IMG/VR virus record: IMGVR_UViG_3300048064_000264
DNA from: a virus
Reading direction: 5' to 3' (one strand)
DNA: 35,614 bases
Of the stretch, positions 30,699 through 33,612 are shown one piece after another. The notes under the pieces were generated by a model. That model was not told the origin of the DNA and did not search any database. It worked only from the letters and a program-made list of their open reading frames with translations. The position numbers and the translations under genes were made by a program. How positions within the stretch are numbered: position 1 is the stretch's first letter; each line of letters starts with the position of its first letter.

Positions 30699-30970
30699 GC
30701 GTACAAACAAAATATTTTGACGAAGACGGTAAAATTGTAATTAACCGCAGTCAGGATATTCAGCGCATTTTAGATTTTAATAAAGAGCGCAACATAGATG
30801 GCCACAACCGTAAATCTGATATGCGGCTTGCAGGGTCTATTCCATTTGTAGTTATAGAAATGTGGATGAAAGAATGTGGCGCAAAATTAGGTAGTCCAGA
30901 GCTAAATCAGTACATTAAGAAAAAATTAATGTCGGGTGAATTTAGCAAGTTGGTAGCTAATGGGTATTAA
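30695..30970 (+). CDS. Hypothetical protein, 91 aa
   Basis: ORF with coupled start and stop codons. Confidence 0.6.
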   Translation: MSVQTKYFDEDGKIVINRSQDIQRILDFNKERNIDGHNRKSDMRLAGSIPFVVIEMWMKECGAKLGSPELNQYIKKKLMSGEFSKLVANGY

Positions 30971-31365
30971 TGAGTGATAAACTACCAAAAGTCAGCATTG
31001 CTGTTGTGGGGGTTGTTATCGCCCAGATTGGTGGATTTATTTGGTGGACGGCACAGCAAGCAAGCACAATATCTAACTTAGAAGAAACAGTGAATATTTT
31101 AACTGTTGAAAATAACGCTACTGATAAAACTAATCTCATTAGAGATGTGCAACGTAATACTGATAACTTGCAAGAAATTATTGATATTTTGTCGGAAGTT
31201 TACGAAGAAATTGAAGACGGTGATAATGAAATTTGGACTGATATAGATATGATTAATGAAGACATGGGCGGCATGGCTAGTCACATGATGGAAATAATTA
31301 AGCTCCAATCTCGTATTGCTATATTAGAAAAGACAGTTGAGTTTAGCCGCAACGATGGGATGTAA
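30970..31365 (+). CDS. Type-II membrane-anchored coiled-coil protein (i-spanin-like topology)
   Basis: N-terminal TM segment VSIAVVGVVIAQIGGFIWW followed by an acidic coiled-coil region. Confidence 0.45.
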   Translation: MSDKLPKVSIAVVGVVIAQIGGFIWWTAQQASTISNLEETVNILTVENNATDKTNLIRDVQRNTDNLQEIIDILSEVYEEIEDGDNEIWTDIDMINEDMGGMASHMMEIIKLQSRIAILEKTVEFSRNDGM

Positions 31366-31367
31366 TT

Positions 31368-31823
31368 ATGGACCCGATTACGATTCTCGCAGGCATAAAA
31401 ACTGGTCTCGCGGCAGGAAAAACCGTTGCAGGACTTAGTAAGCAAATCGGGCAATTCTTTGACGCAACTGACCAAGCTAAGAAAACGTTACAGAAAAAAG
31501 GTGTATCAAGCAAAAGTGCAAATGCTACGGCGTTGGATAGATGGGCGAAACTCCGACAGGCGGCTGAGGCAGAAGAAGAGCTTAAAGAGTGGATTACCCA
31601 AACCTACGGACGGTCAAAATACTTAGAACTTTTGAAAATTCGCAGAGAGGTATTAGCCGAAAAACGCGAGGCAGAAGCTAGGGCGAGGCGTGAGGCACAA
31701 GAAAGGGCAGACTTAGCACTTACTGCGGTTTCTATCATTTTGCTACTCACGGCGGCTCTGGTCGGCTCTACGGCCTATTTGCATCATATGGGTTGGCTCG
31801 ATATTCGGGATTATTTGCCGTGA
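31368..31823 (+). CDS. Tail-anchored membrane protein with a charged coiled coil
   Basis: C-terminal TM segment LALTAVSIILLLTAALVGSTAYL preceded by REAEARARREAQER. Confidence 0.5.
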   Translation: MDPITILAGIKTGLAAGKTVAGLSKQIGQFFDATDQAKKTLQKKGVSSKSANATALDRWAKLRQAAEAEEELKEWITQTYGRSKYLELLKIRREVLAEKREAEARARREAQERADLALTAVSIILLLTAALVGSTAYLHHMGWLDIRDYLP

Positions 31824-31990
31824 TTTATGTTTTAGTATTCTTGCATTTTATAAATACTGATAATTTAAAATTTTATCAGATAGCTACATTTTCGGATAAA
31901 GAAGAATGCCTAAAACAAGCGGAGAAAGCAAAAATATTAGTAACTCACAATTCCATGAAAGTTTCGTGCTTGGAGATTACGACCCAATAG
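31793..31990 (+). CDS. Possible small protein with a hydrophobic N-terminus. An alternative GTG start at 31820 overlaps the upstream stop.
   Basis: Track ORF. No clear RBS, and it overlaps the next candidate frame. Confidence 0.3.
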   Translation: MARYSGLFAVIYVLVFLHFINTDNLKFYQIATFSDKEECLKQAEKAKILVTHNSMKVSCLEITTQ

Positions 31991-32109
31991 TAATAGAACA
32001 TGGCAAAAAATGGGCGGCATACGATAAAAATGGACGTTTAATAATTTTAGGATATAATAGGCGCATATGTCAGGAGTACGCAAATGACAGAGTTCGACAA
32101 GCTAGATAA
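31966..32109 (+). CDS. Possible small protein (..LGDYDPIVIEHGKKWAAYDKNGRLIILGY..). The start is uncertain: GTG at 31966 or ATG at 31906.
   Basis: The track ORF 31906..32109 overlaps the previous frame. The C-terminal part looks protein-like. Confidence 0.3.
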   Translation: MLGDYDPIVIEHGKKWAAYDKNGRLIILGYNRRICQEYANDRVRQAR

Positions 32110-32398
32110 GGATAAGAACGGCAACCTTAGTAAGAAAGAGTTTCAACAACTTGAAATAGAAGACCGCCGACTTAAAATAGCTGATGCAGACGAAAAAAGA
32201 AACACTGAACGATTGCTTGTTAAAGCGTGTTGCGCGGGAATGTTATTATACCCTTTTATTATTTTATTAGCATCTGTTCTTGGCTTTGAGGTGGCGGCAA
32301 GTCTTATAACAGATATTGCAAGCGTTTATGTTGTGGCGGCTAGTGGAGTCGTTGTCGGTTATTTTGGGTTTAACAGCATAAGGGATAAAAACGCATGA
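32084..32398 (+). CDS. EF-hand two-TM membrane protein (holin/antiholin-like)
   Basis: DKDKNGNLSKKEF (loop at 32105..32140) satisfies the canonical 12-residue EF-hand loop pattern. Two hydrophobic helices follow. AGGAG RBS upstream. ATGA overlap with the holin gene. Confidence 0.7.
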   Translation: MTEFDKLDKDKNGNLSKKEFQQLEIEDRRLKIADADEKRNTERLLVKACCAGMLLYPFIILLASVLGFEVAASLITDIASVYVVAASGVVVGYFGFNSIRDKNA

Positions 32399-32778
32399 TA
32401 GCACAACTATTAGGTCCAGTTGCAAGTTTAGCAGGCTCTTGGCTTGATGCAAAAACAACCAAACAAGCGGCTGAAGCCAAATTAAAGCTAACGGAGGCAG
32501 AAGCAAAAAGTAAAATATTGCTCTCAAAAGAAACATCGGTTGCCGATTGGGAGCGGATAATGGCGCAAGGAACTCAAAACTCATGGAAAGACGAATATTT
32601 GGTTGGCTTGTTCAGTATTCCATTAATTTTAGTGTTCACAGGTGAAAAAGGCCGTCAGATCGTTGCAGAGGGCTTTATAGCGTTGGAAAGTATGCCAGAG
32701 TGGTATCAATATACGTTAGGAGTTATCGTAGCCAGTAGCTTTGCCGTCAGGTCTGCCACAAAGTTTTTTAGAAAATAG
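32395..32778 (+). CDS. Putative holin (resembles GTA-type 3-TM holins)
   Basis: An amphipathic AEAKLKLTEAEAK N-terminus plus hydrophobic segments LVGLFSIPLILVF and YTLGVIVASSFAV. It lies directly upstream of the endolysin. Confidence 0.5.
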   Translation: MIAQLLGPVASLAGSWLDAKTTKQAAEAKLKLTEAEAKSKILLSKETSVADWERIMAQGTQNSWKDEYLVGLFSIPLILVFTGEKGRQIVAEGFIALESMPEWYQYTLGVIVASSFAVRSATKFFRK

Positions 32779-32794
32779 TAATAGGAAAATTAAA

Positions 32795-33262
32795 ATGTCT
32801 TTTAAATTATCAAGTAGGTCTTTGGGCAAGCTAGAGGGTGTTCACCCTGATATGGTTGCTACAGTACAAAAGGCCATAGAACTTACAAAAGTTGACTTTG
32901 GCGTGACGTATGGCGTCAGAACTGTTGAGGAACAGCAACGGCTTTTTGATATGGGCAGAAGCCAAACAATGAAATCAAAACACTTAATGCAAGAAAGCGG
33001 TTTTTCACACGCTGTTGATTTGGTGGCATACGATGGTTCTGAAGTTGTTTGGGAAATAAATGTATATGATGACATAGCTGATGCAATGGCTAGTGCGGCC
33101 AAGGAAGTAGGTTGTCGGCTTAGATGGGGCGCGGCATGGCATATAGACGATATAGGCGACTTTGAAGGCACTATGGAAGATGCTATGAATGAGTATGTAG
33201 ACCTTAGAAGGTCACAAGGGCGCAGGCCGTTTATAGATGGTCCACATTTCGAATTAAGGTAA
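32795..33262 (+). CDS. Endolysin, peptidase M15 (VanY/L-Ala-D-Glu peptidase-like)
   Basis: Zn-ligand pattern SKHLMQESGFSHAVDL ... DGPHFEL. I prefer the ATG at 32795 (MSFKLSS) over the track start. Confidence 0.8.
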   Translation: MSFKLSSRSLGKLEGVHPDMVATVQKAIELTKVDFGVTYGVRTVEEQQRLFDMGRSQTMKSKHLMQESGFSHAVDLVAYDGSEVVWEINVYDDIADAMASAAKEVGCRLRWGAAWHIDDIGDFEGTMEDAMNEYVDLRRSQGRRPFIDGPHFELR

Positions 33263-33287
33263 GGGGGCTAACTGCCCCCCCCTTTTT
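33263..33287 (+). terminator. Rho-independent terminator at the end of the rightward arm
   Basis: GGGGGC-TAACT-GCCCCC followed by CCCTTTTT. It lies between convergent genes. Confidence 0.75.
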
Positions 33288-33612
33288 ATGCCGCCTTTTT
33301 GTAAGTGTTGGGGTTTACCTCTATGGCTTGTTCTTCGTAAAATTCTTTGCTTTGCTCGTCCATATCGTCAAGAACGGTTTGCCATTCTGCATAAGTTCTA
33401 ACGCTTCTTACAAACTCTTTATGGCCTAAATTGTTAGTGGTAACTATTGCCGCCACAAAAGCCATAGCGTCTTGCTCACGCTCTAAACCTTGCACAACGT
33501 AATCGTCGCCGCCTTTATACTTCCAACGGTGTAGTCCCTCTGCAAACGCCCCAGAACCTACTTCTGCGCCATCATTTTCTAAAATTTGTGTGCTAACAAC
33601 ATATACATTCAT
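33286..33612 (-). CDS. Hypothetical early protein, 108 aa, last gene of the leftward arm
   Basis: ORF with the conserved leader and a promoter cassette upstream. Confidence 0.7.
   Translation of the reverse strand: MNVYVVSTQILENDGAEVGSGAFAEGLHRWKYKGGDDYVVQGLEREQDAMAFVAAIVTTNNLGHKEFVRSVRTYAEWQTVLDDMDEQSKEFYEEQAIEVNPNTYKKAA

What the first reader, a model, noticed from the sequence alone, without database searches (positions are those of the whole stretch)
32084..32398. Canonical EF-hand Ca2+-binding loop on a two-TM protein translationally coupled to the holin
Seen in sequence:
- Residues 8-20, DKDKNGNLSKKEF, satisfy every position of the classical EF-hand loop pattern: D-x-D-x-N-G-x-L-x-x-x-E plus a hydrophobic residue.
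- The loop is flanked by helix-prone segments.
- Two hydrophobic helices follow: ACCAGMLLYPFIILLASVLGF and IASVYVVAASGVVVGYFGF.
- The gene has a good AGGAG RBS.
- Its stop overlaps the ATG of the putative holin (ATGA), which is followed by the M15 endolysin.

Established knowledge: two-TM proteins next to holins are typically class II holins or antiholins that set lysis timing.

Inference: this could be a Ca2+-responsive holin or antiholin, which would tie lysis timing to divalent-cation status. I am not aware of this being described for phage lysis cassettes. A single EF-hand would imply dimerisation, which fits holin oligomerisation.
Basis: partly seen in the sequence, partly recalled or inferred. 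Interest (0 to 1): 0.62.

Follow-up and report, generated by a model that had tools for sequence, protein, structure and literature searches.

The report
EF-hand two-TM phage lysis protein
A small membrane protein encoded at the head of a marine phage's cell-bursting gene cassette carries a conserved calcium-binding (EF-hand) loop, which suggests that many ocean phages couple the timing of host lysis to calcium; no experiment has tested this.

Summary
ORF 32084..32398 encodes 104 aa. Residues 8-20 (DKDKNGNLSKKEF) are the only PROSITE EF-hand match in the window (0.05 expected by chance). Two TM helices follow, and the stop overlaps the next start (ATGA).

The loop is conserved: 119 of 120 close homologues keep it, with ligand positions fixed and the others free.

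The protein belongs to an unannotated, phage-only family. It is found in over 500 IMG/VR contigs, in Roseobacter phages CRP-701, -345, -207 and -810, and in Pelagibacter phage HTVC008M.

In most sampled loci it overlaps a PF11351-type or phrog_2524-type holin-like gene, followed by interchangeable endolysins. In CRP-345 it sits directly before a u-spanin and a soluble M15 endolysin, and no other holin candidate was found. Elsewhere it abuts Rz/Rz1 spanins or an amidase.

The positive-inside rule (0 of 87 members reversed) places the EF-hand in the cytoplasm, not outside.

Two cautions apply. About half of the divergent family clusters lack the loop. A large T4-like clade keeps the gene in the baseplate module.

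Best reading: a class-II-like holin or co-holin whose cytoplasmic EF-hand responds to Ca2+ influx or dimerises. Ca2+ binding and lysis function are untested. I found no published EF-hand holin.

The parts
32072..32076 (+). Shine-Dalgarno AGGAG, 7 nt upstream of the ATG
   Evidence: read directly from the sequence
32084..32398 (+). CDS of the 104-aa EF-hand two-TM protein ('EF2TM')
   Evidence: ORF list. 402 homologous 90%-identity clusters at E<=0.01 and 670 50%-identity representatives at E<=1e-3.
32105..32143 (+). EF-hand loop, residues 8-20 (DKDKNGNLSKKEF). Ligand positions are D8, D10, N12 and E19, with G13 and L15.
   Evidence: PS00018 match. Pfam EF-hand_5/6/1 at E 2e-4. PDB profile hits are all EF-hand proteins. 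D8, G13 and E19 are invariant in alignment A3.
32144..32224 (+). Charged juxtamembrane helix, residues 21-47. Its membrane-proximal half, from about residue 33, is the conserved 'D.D.KR(D/N)..R' segment. AF2 models it as continuous with the EF-hand exiting helix and with TM1.
   Evidence: AF2 helix 17-66. D34, D36, K38, R39 and R43 are invariant in A3. The segment is also conserved in members without the loop.
32225..32287 (+). TM1, residues 48-68 (ACCAGMLLYPFIILLASVLGF), containing the (Y/F)P motif whose Pro57 is invariant in alignment A4
   Evidence: Kyte-Doolittle peak 2.27. P57 is invariant across 30 divergent members.
32288..32314 (+). Short acidic loop, residues 69-77 (EVAASLITD), predicted periplasmic
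   Evidence: 0 K/R here in the window protein. Family means of K+R are 0.52 in this loop, 3.43 in the N-flank and 2.71 in the C-tail.
32315..32371 (+). TM2, residues 78-96 (IASVYVVAASGVVVGYFGF), rich in small residues, with G88, G92, G95 and S87
   Evidence: Kyte-Doolittle 1.86-1.87. Y82 and G95 are nearly invariant.
32395..32778 (+). Translationally coupled 127-aa holin-like gene (phrog_2524 type). It is probably a distant relative of PF11351 GTA_holin_3TM.
   Evidence: phrog_2524 at E 1.1e-24 with no Pfam hit. The same slot holds true PF11351 genes in CRP-701 and CRP-810 (E 1e-18 and 2.5e-20) and in loci whose EF2TM is 100% identical. hhalign of the two partner types gives Prob 85.6%, E 5.5e-6.
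32795..33262 (+). Endolysin, peptidase M15_4 type, with no signal or SAR segment
   Evidence: phrog_465 at E 4.8e-51 and PF13539 at E 7e-4. No hydrophobic segment.
33263..33289 (+). Intrinsic terminator-like hairpin (GGGGGC-TAACT-GCCCCC) with a T-run, closing the cassette
32031..32058 (+). Sigma-70-like promoter match (TGGACG-16-TATAAT, 10 of 12) just upstream of the RBS. It is a weak lead only and lies inside the small conserved ORF.
31966..32109 (+). Small conserved ORF of 47 aa from GTG 31966, or 67 aa from ATG 31906. It overlaps the EF2TM start by 26 nt and its function is unknown.
   Evidence: The frame stays open in 17 related loci down to 56% aa identity, including CRP-701, where it is not annotated. 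No PHROG hit.
30970..31990 (+). Three conserved upstream membrane-protein genes. 30970..31365 has an N-terminal TM and a coiled coil, with weak Rz-like hits. 31368..31823 has a C-terminal TM. 31820..31990 is a 56-aa protein with a hydrophobic N-terminus.
   Evidence: TM scan. phrog_214 and phrog_739 Rz-like spanin at E 0.003-0.007. They are syntenic with EF2TM in most loci.

Best explanation
EF2TM is a phage inner-membrane lysis protein with class-II-holin topology: two TM helices, with both the N- and C-termini in the cytoplasm. It is the first gene of a three-gene lysis unit (EF2TM, PF11351-like holin-type protein, M15 endolysin), and I propose that it acts as a holin or co-holin.

Its 47-residue cytoplasmic head is a single EF-hand. 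The exiting helix of that EF-hand is predicted to run as one continuous helix into TM1.

Proposed mechanism (inferred, not shown):
1. In an energised marine host, cytoplasmic free Ca2+ is sub-micromolar while seawater holds about 10 mM. These two figures are from my own knowledge and were not checked here. The loop would therefore be empty while the protein accumulates in the membrane.
2. When the membrane first leaks or depolarises, Ca2+ enters and fills the loop. Single EF-hands function as pairs, so the heads of two neighbouring molecules dimerise.
3. The rigid helix transmits this change to the TM hairpins. That promotes the oligomerisation that opens holes and releases the soluble endolysin. 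The result is a feed-forward, all-or-none trigger.

Shown here: the gene, the conserved loop, the topology prediction and the synteny with lysis genes. Inferred: holin activity, Ca2+ binding and the direction of the Ca2+ effect.
For: **The loop is real and under selection**
- It is the only PS00018 match in the window, against 0.047 expected.
- 119 of 120 close homologues keep it. Positions 1, 3, 5, 6, 8 and 12 are fixed while positions 2, 4, 7 and 9-11 vary.
- Among 41 divergent loop-bearing representatives, position 12 is E in 40 and position 6 is G in 38.
- One member has two tandem loops (P0151), which fits a need for EF-hand pairing.
- PDB and Pfam profile hits are all EF-hand proteins.

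**Lysis role by recurrent, independent synteny**
- Of 78 loci with enough downstream sequence, 64 have a PF11351-like or phrog_2524-like gene next, and one has a u-spanin. 54 of these 65 partner starts overlap the EF2TM stop.
- The endolysin behind is swapped among M15, GH108, a CRP-701-type glycoside hydrolase, an amidase and a PG_binding_1 type.
- The two partner types alternate behind 100%-identical EF2TM genes.
- CRP-345 has EF2TM, then a u-spanin-like lipoprotein, then a soluble M15 endolysin. That genome has no PF11351 or phrog_2524 gene and no annotated holin.
- Rz/Rz1 spanins lie directly upstream in L188 and L189, and an amidase lies directly upstream in L190.
- Two independent assemblies carry a 232-nt frameshifting deletion of the partner gene while EF2TM and the endolysin stay intact.

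**Topology and structure**
- Family means of K+R are 3.43 in the N-flank, 0.52 in the loop and 2.71 in the C-tail, and 0 of 87 members are reversed.
- Members with N-terminal extensions of 45-90 aa that appear hydrophilic and have no obvious signal peptide (read by eye) also argue for N-in.
- AF2 models helix 17-66 as one continuous helix.

**Phage-only family**
- Only 4 hits, all on MAG contigs, were found in 185,579 species genomes.

**Cassette boundary**
- The cassette is closed by a strong terminator-like hairpin.
Against: - There is no experimental evidence for Ca2+ binding, membrane insertion or lethality.
- The window protein scores below Pfam's EF-hand gathering cut-offs (21 against 25-26 bits).
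- The entering helix is only about 5 residues long. In the large 'HPADTNGDG' clade a proline at position -2 removes it, so the site there is a loop-helix, as I recall the dockerin F-hand to be.
- 46 of 87 complete 50%-identity representatives lack the loop, so the core function does not need it.
- 70 of 163 loci of the second set place the gene between gp51-like and tape-measure/gp29-like genes of T4-like phages, with no recognised lysis gene within 1.6 kb.
- 13 loci of the first set had no recognised partner gene downstream. In those I inspected, the gene ends a structural operon and no plus-strand lysis gene follows.
- No match to any described holin family. The best are single-member hits: Phage_holin_3_6 at E 3.4e-4 and phrog_126 at E 0.23.
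- Unlike typical holins, the charged domain is N-terminal and the C-tail is only 8 residues.
- A second holin-like gene is present in the window, so EF2TM need not be the hole-former here.
Confidence: 0.45

Rival explanations
1. EF2TM is an antiholin or timing regulator of the downstream PF11351-like holin. It forms inactive heteromers in the membrane, and the cytoplasmic EF-hand relieves or imposes the inhibition when Ca2+ changes.
For: - It is translationally coupled (ATGA) to a holin-type gene in the window and in 54 of 65 loci with a recognised partner.
- According to PMC5026251, the RcGTA endolysin-holin locus rcc00555-rcc00556, from which PF11351 takes its name, was shown to be required for lysis and particle release. 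No EF2TM relative is described there, so the partner type may form holes on its own. I did not check that rcc00556 itself matches PF11351.
- The EF-hand is optional in the family, as expected of a regulatory add-on.
Against: - EF2TM occurs without any PF11351 or phrog_2524 gene in CRP-345 and CRP-207.
- It occurs next to spanins or an amidase with no recognised holin-type gene in the 1.6-kb blastp tally and no other small membrane protein among the neighbouring + strand ORFs, apart from the spanins themselves and a TM-scoring ORF that lies inside the EF2TM gene in another frame.
- In L014 and L015 the partner gene is destroyed while EF2TM is kept.
- An inhibitor with nothing to inhibit would not be maintained.
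Confidence: 0.2
2. EF2TM is not a lysis protein. It is a phage membrane protein with another role, such as superinfection exclusion or an injection block like T4 Imm, host-membrane remodelling, or a protein associated with the baseplate or with DNA injection. Its place next to lysis genes then only reflects late-operon packing.
For: - In HTVC008M and in 70 of 163 loci of the second set it sits between baseplate-hub/gp51-like and tape-measure/gp29-like genes.
- In the window's phage type it follows three other small membrane-protein genes that come after the tail genes.
- In 13 loci no recognised holin-like gene follows it, and in those I inspected no plus-strand lysis gene follows at all.
Against: - The family occurs in several unrelated phage genome types (HMO-2011-type, CRP-822-type, CRP-810-type and T4-like phages), so a shared tail-structural role is unlikely.
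- Overlapping starts with holin-type genes, and repeated adjacency to five endolysin types and three spanin types, are hard to explain by packing alone.
- In T4 itself the holin gene t lies at the end of the tail-fibre cluster (my own knowledge), so a late structural context does not exclude a holin.
Confidence: 0.15
3. EF2TM is a lysis-cassette membrane protein, but the EF-hand-like loop does no sensing. It is a constitutive dimerisation or folding module, possibly occupied by Mg2+, and lysis timing does not depend on Ca2+.
For: - Roughly half of the divergent family clusters replace the loop with other helical heads.
- The entering helix is minimal or absent.
- From my own knowledge, dockerin F-hands use the same kind of loop structurally. 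One member hits Dockerin_1 at E 1.2e-4.
Against: - The loop strictly retains the bidentate Glu at position 12 (E in 40 of 41) and Gly at position 6, which from my own knowledge is typical of Ca2+-competent sites.
- In the cytoplasm, a canonical loop would be mostly empty at resting Ca2+, which makes a purely structural Ca2+ site awkward.
Confidence: 0.15
4. The EF-hand match is a chance motif in a charged N-terminus and has no function.
For: PS00018 is a short pattern with known false positives (my own knowledge), and the Pfam score is below the cut-off.
Against: - Only 0.047 matches are expected in the whole window.
- The motif is kept in 119 of 120 and 157 of 163 homologues, with ligand-specific conservation.
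Confidence: 0.03

Closest known systems
Class II holins (two TMDs, N-in/C-in), for example the phage 21 S21 68 pinholin
   Same: It is a small phage protein with two TM helices, both termini predicted cytoplasmic and a short basic C-tail. TM2 is rich in small residues (Gly, Ala, Ser). The gene heads a cassette with an endolysin and is translationally coupled to its neighbours.
   Different: - No sequence similarity to any described holin family.
- The large charged domain is N-terminal and is an EF-hand.
- No dual-start motif.
- The associated endolysins have no SAR or signal sequence, so a pinholin-type small hole would not suffice.
- Hole formation is untested.
PF11351 GTA_holin_3TM (named for the RcGTA holin rcc00556)
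   Same: It is the usual immediate neighbour of EF2TM. It occurs in alphaproteobacterial phages and gene transfer agents and belongs to the same lysis cassettes.
   Different: It is a different protein. hhalign of EF2TM against the PF11351-like partners gives Prob 0.7%, and against the phrog_2524-like partners 31.6%, over the TM hairpin only. EF2TM also occurs without it.
T4 lysis-inhibition regulators RI (periplasmic antiholin) and RIII (cytoplasmic co-antiholin)
   Same: The concept is shared: a separate small protein that couples holin triggering to a signal through a soluble sensor domain. In RIII that domain is on the cytoplasmic side. This comparison rests on my own knowledge.
   Different: There is no homology. 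EF2TM is an integral 2-TM protein, the proposed signal is Ca2+, and EF2TM persists where no partner holin is recognisable.
Canonical EF-hands (calmodulin loop I, DKDGDGTITTKE), and isolated EF-hand peptides that dimerise on Ca2+ binding (troponin C site III)
   Same: The loop pattern is identical at positions 1, 3, 5, 6, 8 and 12, with hydrophobic residues at -4 and -1 (F4, L7) and at +13 (F20). A single site implies pairing between chains. The calmodulin and troponin C details are from my own knowledge.
   Different: The entering helix has only about 5 residues, because the protein starts 7 residues before the loop. The exiting helix continues into a TM helix. The Pfam score is below the gathering cut-off.
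EF-hand-like Ca2+ sites in phage endolysin CHAP domains (staphylococcal lysins)
   Same: This is the only link between EF-hand motifs and phage lysis proteins that the paper search returned.
   Different: Judging by their titles and abstracts, the phage papers returned concern endolysins. From my own knowledge, those Ca2+ sites sit in the soluble CHAP catalytic domain, not in a membrane protein that would control timing.

Membership tests
EF-hand (PROSITE PS00018; Pfam clan EF_hand) | A 12-residue loop with oxygen ligands at positions 1, 3, 5 and 12 (Glu), Gly at 6 and a hydrophobic residue at 8 | tested here: met
   D8, D10, N12, G13, L15 and E19 give an exact PS00018 match, conserved in 119 of 120 homologues.
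EF-hand (PROSITE PS00018; Pfam clan EF_hand) | Profile-HMM score above the curated gathering threshold | tested here: not met
   The window protein scores 21.1, 21.0 and 19.8 bits against cut-offs of 25.9, 25 and 25.4. Relatives do better, with a best E of 1.6e-6 and precomputed PF13202/PF00036 hits on many.
EF-hand (PROSITE PS00018; Pfam clan EF_hand) | Helix-loop-helix: an entering (E) and an exiting (F) helix flank the loop | tested here: inconclusive
   The AF2 model has a clear F helix (17-66), but the E helix covers only residues 3-7. The 'HPAD' clade has a Pro at -2, so it has no E helix.
EF-hand (PROSITE PS00018; Pfam clan EF_hand) | Pairing with a second EF-hand, and actual Ca2+ binding | not testable with these tools
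   There is one loop per chain, and no multimer or ion modelling was available. One relative has two tandem loops (P0151).
Holin (functional class; class II topology) | A small phage protein with at least one TMD. For class II, two TMDs with N and C in the cytoplasm. | tested here: met
   104 aa with two hydrophobic helices. The positive-inside count favours N-in/C-in in 87 of 87 members. This is a prediction only.
Holin (functional class; class II topology) | Encoded next to the endolysin or spanin genes of the phage | tested here: met
   Window order: EF2TM, holin-like gene, M15 endolysin. This recurs with five endolysin types and with u-spanin or Rz/Rz1 neighbours. It does not hold in the T4-like clade.
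Holin (functional class; class II topology) | A highly charged hydrophilic C-terminal cytoplasmic domain | tested here: not met
   The C-tail is 8 residues (NSIRDKNA). The charged domain is at the N-terminus.
Holin (functional class; class II topology) | Membership of a described holin sequence family (Pfam, PHROG, NCBIfam) | tested here: not met
   No significant hit. phrog_126 reaches E 0.23, and one relative hits Phage_holin_3_6 at E 3.4e-4.
Holin (functional class; class II topology) | Lethal, timed membrane-hole formation that releases endolysin and can be triggered by energy poisons | not testable with these tools
   This needs expression experiments.
Antiholin | Always co-occurs with the cognate holin that it inhibits | tested here: not met
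   CRP-345 and CRP-207 have no PF11351 or phrog_2524 gene. The partner gene is deleted in L014 and L015.
PF11351 GTA_holin_3TM (for the neighbouring gene 32395..32778) | Match to the Pfam model above the cut-off | tested here: inconclusive
   The window gene has no Pfam hit at E<=1 and matches phrog_2524 at 1.1e-24. Genes in the same slot in CRP-701 and CRP-810 score 68-74 bits. Profile-profile comparison of the two types gives Prob 85.6%, E 5.5e-6 over 105 columns.

The most novel reading that the evidence does not exclude
This would be a Ca2+-gated holin. Phages of marine Alphaproteobacteria, including relatives of pelagiphage HTVC008M and several roseophage groups, would exploit the roughly 10^5-fold Ca2+ gradient across the host membrane. 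The first lesion admits Ca2+, cytoplasmic EF-hand heads pair, and the holin population fires together. This would be a chemically defined trigger for the 'holin clock', and the EF-hand head would be a swappable sensor module on a new holin family.
Probability: 0.25. Interest if true: 0.8.

Novelty: new variant of a known kind. Interest (0 to 1): 0.6.

Why it matters
**The open question.** To my knowledge, what makes holins fire suddenly is still a classic open question in phage biology; membrane depolarisation is the only trigger I know of. A holin-class protein with a recognisable, mutable ligand-binding domain would give a direct experimental handle through loop mutants, Ca2+ titration and peptide dimerisation.

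**Abundance.** The family is abundant. It occurs in cultured phages of Roseobacter lineages and of SAR11, groups I understand to be among the most abundant marine bacteria. In none of the annotated isolate records examined here is the gene labelled as a lysis gene.

**Practical gains.** The family would supply the holin candidate for CRP-345, where none is annotated, and possibly for the T4-like marine myophage HTVC008M, whose holin I did not look for. It would also improve lysis-cassette annotation in marine viromes.

Even if Ca2+ sensing fails, the 2-TM core is a new, large, phage-only family linked to lysis cassettes and deserves a family model.

Tried and rejected
1. **Fold search.** The AF2 model searched against PDB gave 0 hits, so a helical hairpin is uninformative.
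2. **AF2 of the neighbouring 127-aa protein.** pLDDT was 58.8, too poor to judge topology.
3. **Are EF2TM and its neighbour paralogues?** hhalign gave Prob 31.6% against the phrog_2524 type, over the TM hairpin only, and 0.7% against the PF11351 type. I treat this as compositional similarity. The weak phrog_2524 hit on the HTVC008M homologue (E 0.004) has the same explanation.
4. **Family libraries.** NCBIfam, PHROG and Pfam scans of the protein, plus PHROG and Pfam scans of 30 divergent members, found no functional family for the 2-TM core. The source label 'pilus assembly protein TadC' on some clusters is not supported by any scan.
5. **Bacterial genomes.** The scan found only four MAG contigs, so the family is not a prophage or cellular one. 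Host taxonomy cannot be read from these hits.
6. **The window's own genome is not held**, so there was no whole-genome check for other holins in this phage.
7. **The promoter-like site at 32031-32058** is kept only as a weak lead. It lies inside a conserved small ORF, and the region yields promoter-like matches at close to the shuffled rate (13 against 7.7 +/- 3.8).
8. **Literature.** I found nothing on EF-hand holins. The CRP-701 and CRP-810 papers do not mention EF-hand, calcium or this gene.

**Caveats on the tallies.** Loci are the best-scoring 80 of each scan and include near-duplicates. ORFs were called with a simple longest-ORF rule on the + strand only. Neighbours were classified by blastp against a handful of reference proteins, so 'none recognised' does not mean absent.
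Full report
**1. The observation**

ORF 32084..32398 (+) encodes the 104-aa protein MTEFDKLDKDKNGNLSKKEFQQLEIEDRRLKIADADEKRNTERLLVKACCAGMLLYPFIILLASVLGFEVAASLITDIASVYVVAASGVVVGYFGFNSIRDKNA.
- AGGAG lies at 32072-32076, 7 nt before the ATG.
- The stop (TGA, 32396-32398) overlaps the ATG (32395-32397) of a 127-aa ORF.
- That ORF is followed at 32795..33262 by an M15_4/phrog_465 endolysin (E 4.8e-51) with no hydrophobic N-terminus.
- A strong terminator-like hairpin at 33263-33279 follows the endolysin stop.
- Residues 8-20 match PROSITE PS00018 at every position. This is the only match in all six-frame ORFs of 60 aa or more in the window, against 0.047 expected from shuffles. A shuffled copy of the protein matches with P = 5.7e-4.
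- Pfam EF-hand_5, _6 and _1 align to residues 4-23 at E 2e-4 to 5e-4, at 21 bits, below the 25-26 bit cut-offs.
- A family profile searched against all PDB sequences returns EF-hand proteins at the top (Entamoeba CaBP, calmodulins, calcineurin B), aligned on profile positions 3-25.
- AlphaFold2 with a 20-sequence alignment (pLDDT 77) gives helix 3-7, loop 8-16, one continuous helix 17-66 that joins the EF-hand exiting helix to TM1, and helix 68-103.

**2. Conservation**
- The large protein collection holds 402 clusters at E<=0.01.
- 119 of the 120 listed clusters keep a PS00018 loop. D1, D/N3, N/D5, G6, I/L/V8 and E12 are held while positions 2, 4, 7 and 9-11 vary freely. This is the pattern expected of selection on a metal site.
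- An exhaustive profile search of 1.84 billion 50%-identity representatives finds 670 proteins at E<=1e-3.
- Among the 87 listed representatives with a complete 2-TM core, 41 carry a loop. Of these, position 12 is E in 40 and position 6 is G in 38.
- The other 46 do not carry a loop. Some of them have miscalled starts, but many have a different helical head.
- One representative has two tandem loops (P0151).
- The conserved core is the juxtamembrane segment 'D.D.KRDAQR.M.W', TM1 with a (Y/F)P motif whose Pro is invariant in alignment A4, a short acidic loop, and a TM2 rich in Gly, Ala and Ser.
- The EF-hand is therefore a frequent but optional N-terminal module on a wider family.

**3. Who has it**
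- tblastn against isolate phage genomes finds homologues in Roseobacter phages CRP-701, CRP-345, CRP-207 and CRP-810 and in the T4-like Pelagibacter phage HTVC008M. All are annotated 'hypothetical protein'.
- Three scans of IMG/VR each returned more than 500 confirmed loci.
- A scan of one genome for each of 185,579 prokaryotic species found four hits, all on MAG contigs. The family is essentially phage-only.
- The window resembles the CRP-822-type roseophages that include CRP-701.

**4. Genomic context**

*First set: 96 loci around the window's clade.* 78 of them have at least 1.2 kb of downstream sequence.
- The next gene is PF11351-like in 39, phrog_2524-like in 25, a u-spanin in 1 and unrecognised in 13.
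- In 54 of the 65 loci with a recognised partner, the partner's start overlaps the EF2TM stop.
- The two partner types alternate behind 100%-identical EF2TM genes: L017, L019, L020 and L023 against L018, L021 and L022.
- The two types are probably distant homologues (hhalign Prob 85.6%, E 5.5e-6, 105 columns).
- CRP-701 and CRP-810 carry bona fide PF11351 genes in this slot (E 1e-18 and 2.5e-20).
- According to PMC5026251, the RcGTA endolysin-holin locus rcc00555-rcc00556, for which PF11351 is named, was shown to be needed for lysis.
- The endolysin behind the pair is M15, GH108, a CRP-701-type glycoside hydrolase, an amidase (L040) or a PG_binding_1 protein. Such mosaicism is typical of lysis cassettes.

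*Cases where EF2TM occurs without that partner.*
- In CRP-345 the order is EF2TM (gp69), then a lipoprotein with a C-terminal TM annotated as a spanin (gp68), then a soluble M15 endolysin (gp67).
- That genome has no PF11351 or phrog_2524 gene and no annotated holin.
- In L014 and L015, two independent assemblies carry the same 232-nt frameshifting deletion inside the partner gene, relative to L016. EF2TM and the endolysin remain intact.

*Second set: 163 loci, retrieved with two family members that lack the loop (157 of the 163 loci themselves carry one).*
- 45 have a lysis gene within 1.6 kb.
- Examples are Rz-like and Rz1-like spanins directly upstream in L188 and L189 (phrog_739 E 8e-13, phrog_812 E 1.5e-14) and an amidase directly upstream in L190 (phrog_1794 E 4e-17).
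- 70 of the 163 are T4-like. There the gene lies after a baseplate-hub gene and a gp51-like gene and before a 560-770-aa protein like the HTVC008M gene annotated 'putative tail tape measure', as in HTVC008M itself.
- From my own knowledge, T4's holin gene t lies at the end of the tail-fibre cluster. This context therefore weakens the lysis reading but does not exclude it.

**5. Topology**
- Across 87 members, mean K+R is 3.43 in the 15 residues before TM1, 0.52 in the inter-helix loop and 2.71 in the C-tail. No member is reversed.
- The window protein's N-domain has 12 K/R and 12 D/E, with no signal peptide.
- Relatives carry N-terminal extensions of 45-90 aa that look hydrophilic.
- The predicted topology is N-in/C-in, so the EF-hand is cytoplasmic.
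The loop cannot report the external cation status directly.

**6. Mechanism proposed**

*Steps shown or predicted here:*
- a small 2-TM protein, predicted N-in/C-in;
- a conserved canonical Ca2+-type loop;
- a predicted rigid helical connection from the loop to TM1;
- recurrent coupling to holin-type, endolysin and spanin genes;
- persistence where no other holin candidate is found, beside endolysins that lack a secretion signal and so need a large-hole holin.

*Steps inferred:*
- The protein is a holin or co-holin.
- From my own knowledge, resting cytoplasmic Ca2+ is sub-micromolar and seawater holds about 10 mM. The loop would therefore be empty until the membrane first leaks.
- Ca2+ entry would then fill the loop and pair the heads of neighbouring molecules, since single EF-hands act as pairs and isolated EF-hand peptides dimerise on Ca2+ binding (also from my own knowledge).
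- The continuous helix would transmit this to the TM hairpins and favour oligomerisation and hole opening, giving a feed-forward trigger.
- The direction of the effect could equally be inhibitory.

I put 0.45 on this overall reading. The rivals are:
- an antiholin of the PF11351-like protein, 0.2;
- a membrane protein with no lysis role, 0.15;
- a structural loop that is insensitive to metal, 0.15;
- a chance motif, about 0.03.

**7. Comparison with what is known**
- EF2TM works like, and has the topology and gene position of, a class II holin.
- It fails two membership features. It has no similarity to any described holin family, and its charged domain is N-terminal rather than C-terminal.
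- As an EF-hand, it meets the loop definition exactly. Its entering helix is truncated and its Pfam score is below the cut-off.
- In the 'HPADTNGDG' clade the site is a loop-helix resembling what I recall of the dockerin F-hand.
- Full-text searches found no EF-hand or Ca2+-binding holin or antiholin. The EF-hand and phage-lysis co-occurrences returned are papers on phage endolysins.
- The papers describing CRP-701 and CRP-810 do not mention this gene, EF-hands or calcium.

**8. Verdict**
- The feature is real, conserved and widespread.
- The lysis-cassette assignment is well supported for the window's phage type.
- Ca2+ sensing is a reasoned hypothesis without direct evidence.
- Novelty: a new variant of a known kind, meaning a new putative holin family with an optional Ca2+-binding sensor head.
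- Interest: 0.6.

Noticed in passing
window 31906/31966..32109 (+): A small ORF (67 aa from ATG 31906, 47 aa from GTG 31966) overlaps the EF2TM start by 26 nt. It stays open in 17 related loci down to 56% aa identity, including CRP-701, where the stretch is annotated as intergenic. It is probably an unannotated small gene of the cassette. It has no TM segment and no family hit.
   Followed up: partly
window 31820..31990 (+): A 56-aa ORF starts at a GTG that overlaps the stop of the upstream gene (GTGA). It has a hydrophobic N-terminus and two Cys, and it is the homologue of CRP701_23. It is found beside EF2TM in 59 of the loci searched, sometimes downstream of the holin-like gene instead of upstream. 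Its last 25-85 nt overlap the small ORF above in another frame, so this stretch is dual-coding.
   Followed up: partly
window 30970..31365 and 31368..31823 (+): Two conserved membrane-protein genes lie upstream. One is 131 aa, with an N-terminal TM and a coiled coil, and gives weak Rz-like spanin hits (E 0.003-0.007). The other is 151 aa, with a Gly-rich amphipathic N-terminus, a coiled coil and a C-terminal TM; its CRP-701 homologue is annotated 'peptidase'. They may be spanin-like or other envelope-disruption components. No lipoprotein o-spanin was identified in the window.
   Followed up: partly
L014:3781-3990 and L015:3781-3990 compared with L016:560-1000: Two independent metagenome assemblies share an identical 232-nt internal, frameshifting deletion in the phrog_2524-type holin-like gene, with identical flanks. 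This is a natural knock-out of the partner gene.
   Followed up: yes
L002:2787-3152 (CRP-345 gp68): This protein has a lipobox (LLLSSC) and a C-terminal TM helix. That is a unimolecular-spanin architecture, sitting between the EF2TM homologue and the endolysin.
   Followed up: partly
L003:1869-2450 (CRP-207 gp73, annotated 'putative lysozyme'): The sequence shows an N-terminal TM helix and a long region that looks like a coiled coil by eye. It looks more like an Rz-type i-spanin or another membrane-anchored coiled-coil protein than a lysozyme. It lies directly upstream of the EF2TM homologue.
   Followed up: no
representative P0134, and L177:38-610: In T4-like marine myophage contigs, the gp51-like baseplate assembly gene and the EF2TM gene are adjacent. 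In at least one representative they appear to have been called as one fused ORF, judged by eye from the N-terminal sequence.
   Followed up: no
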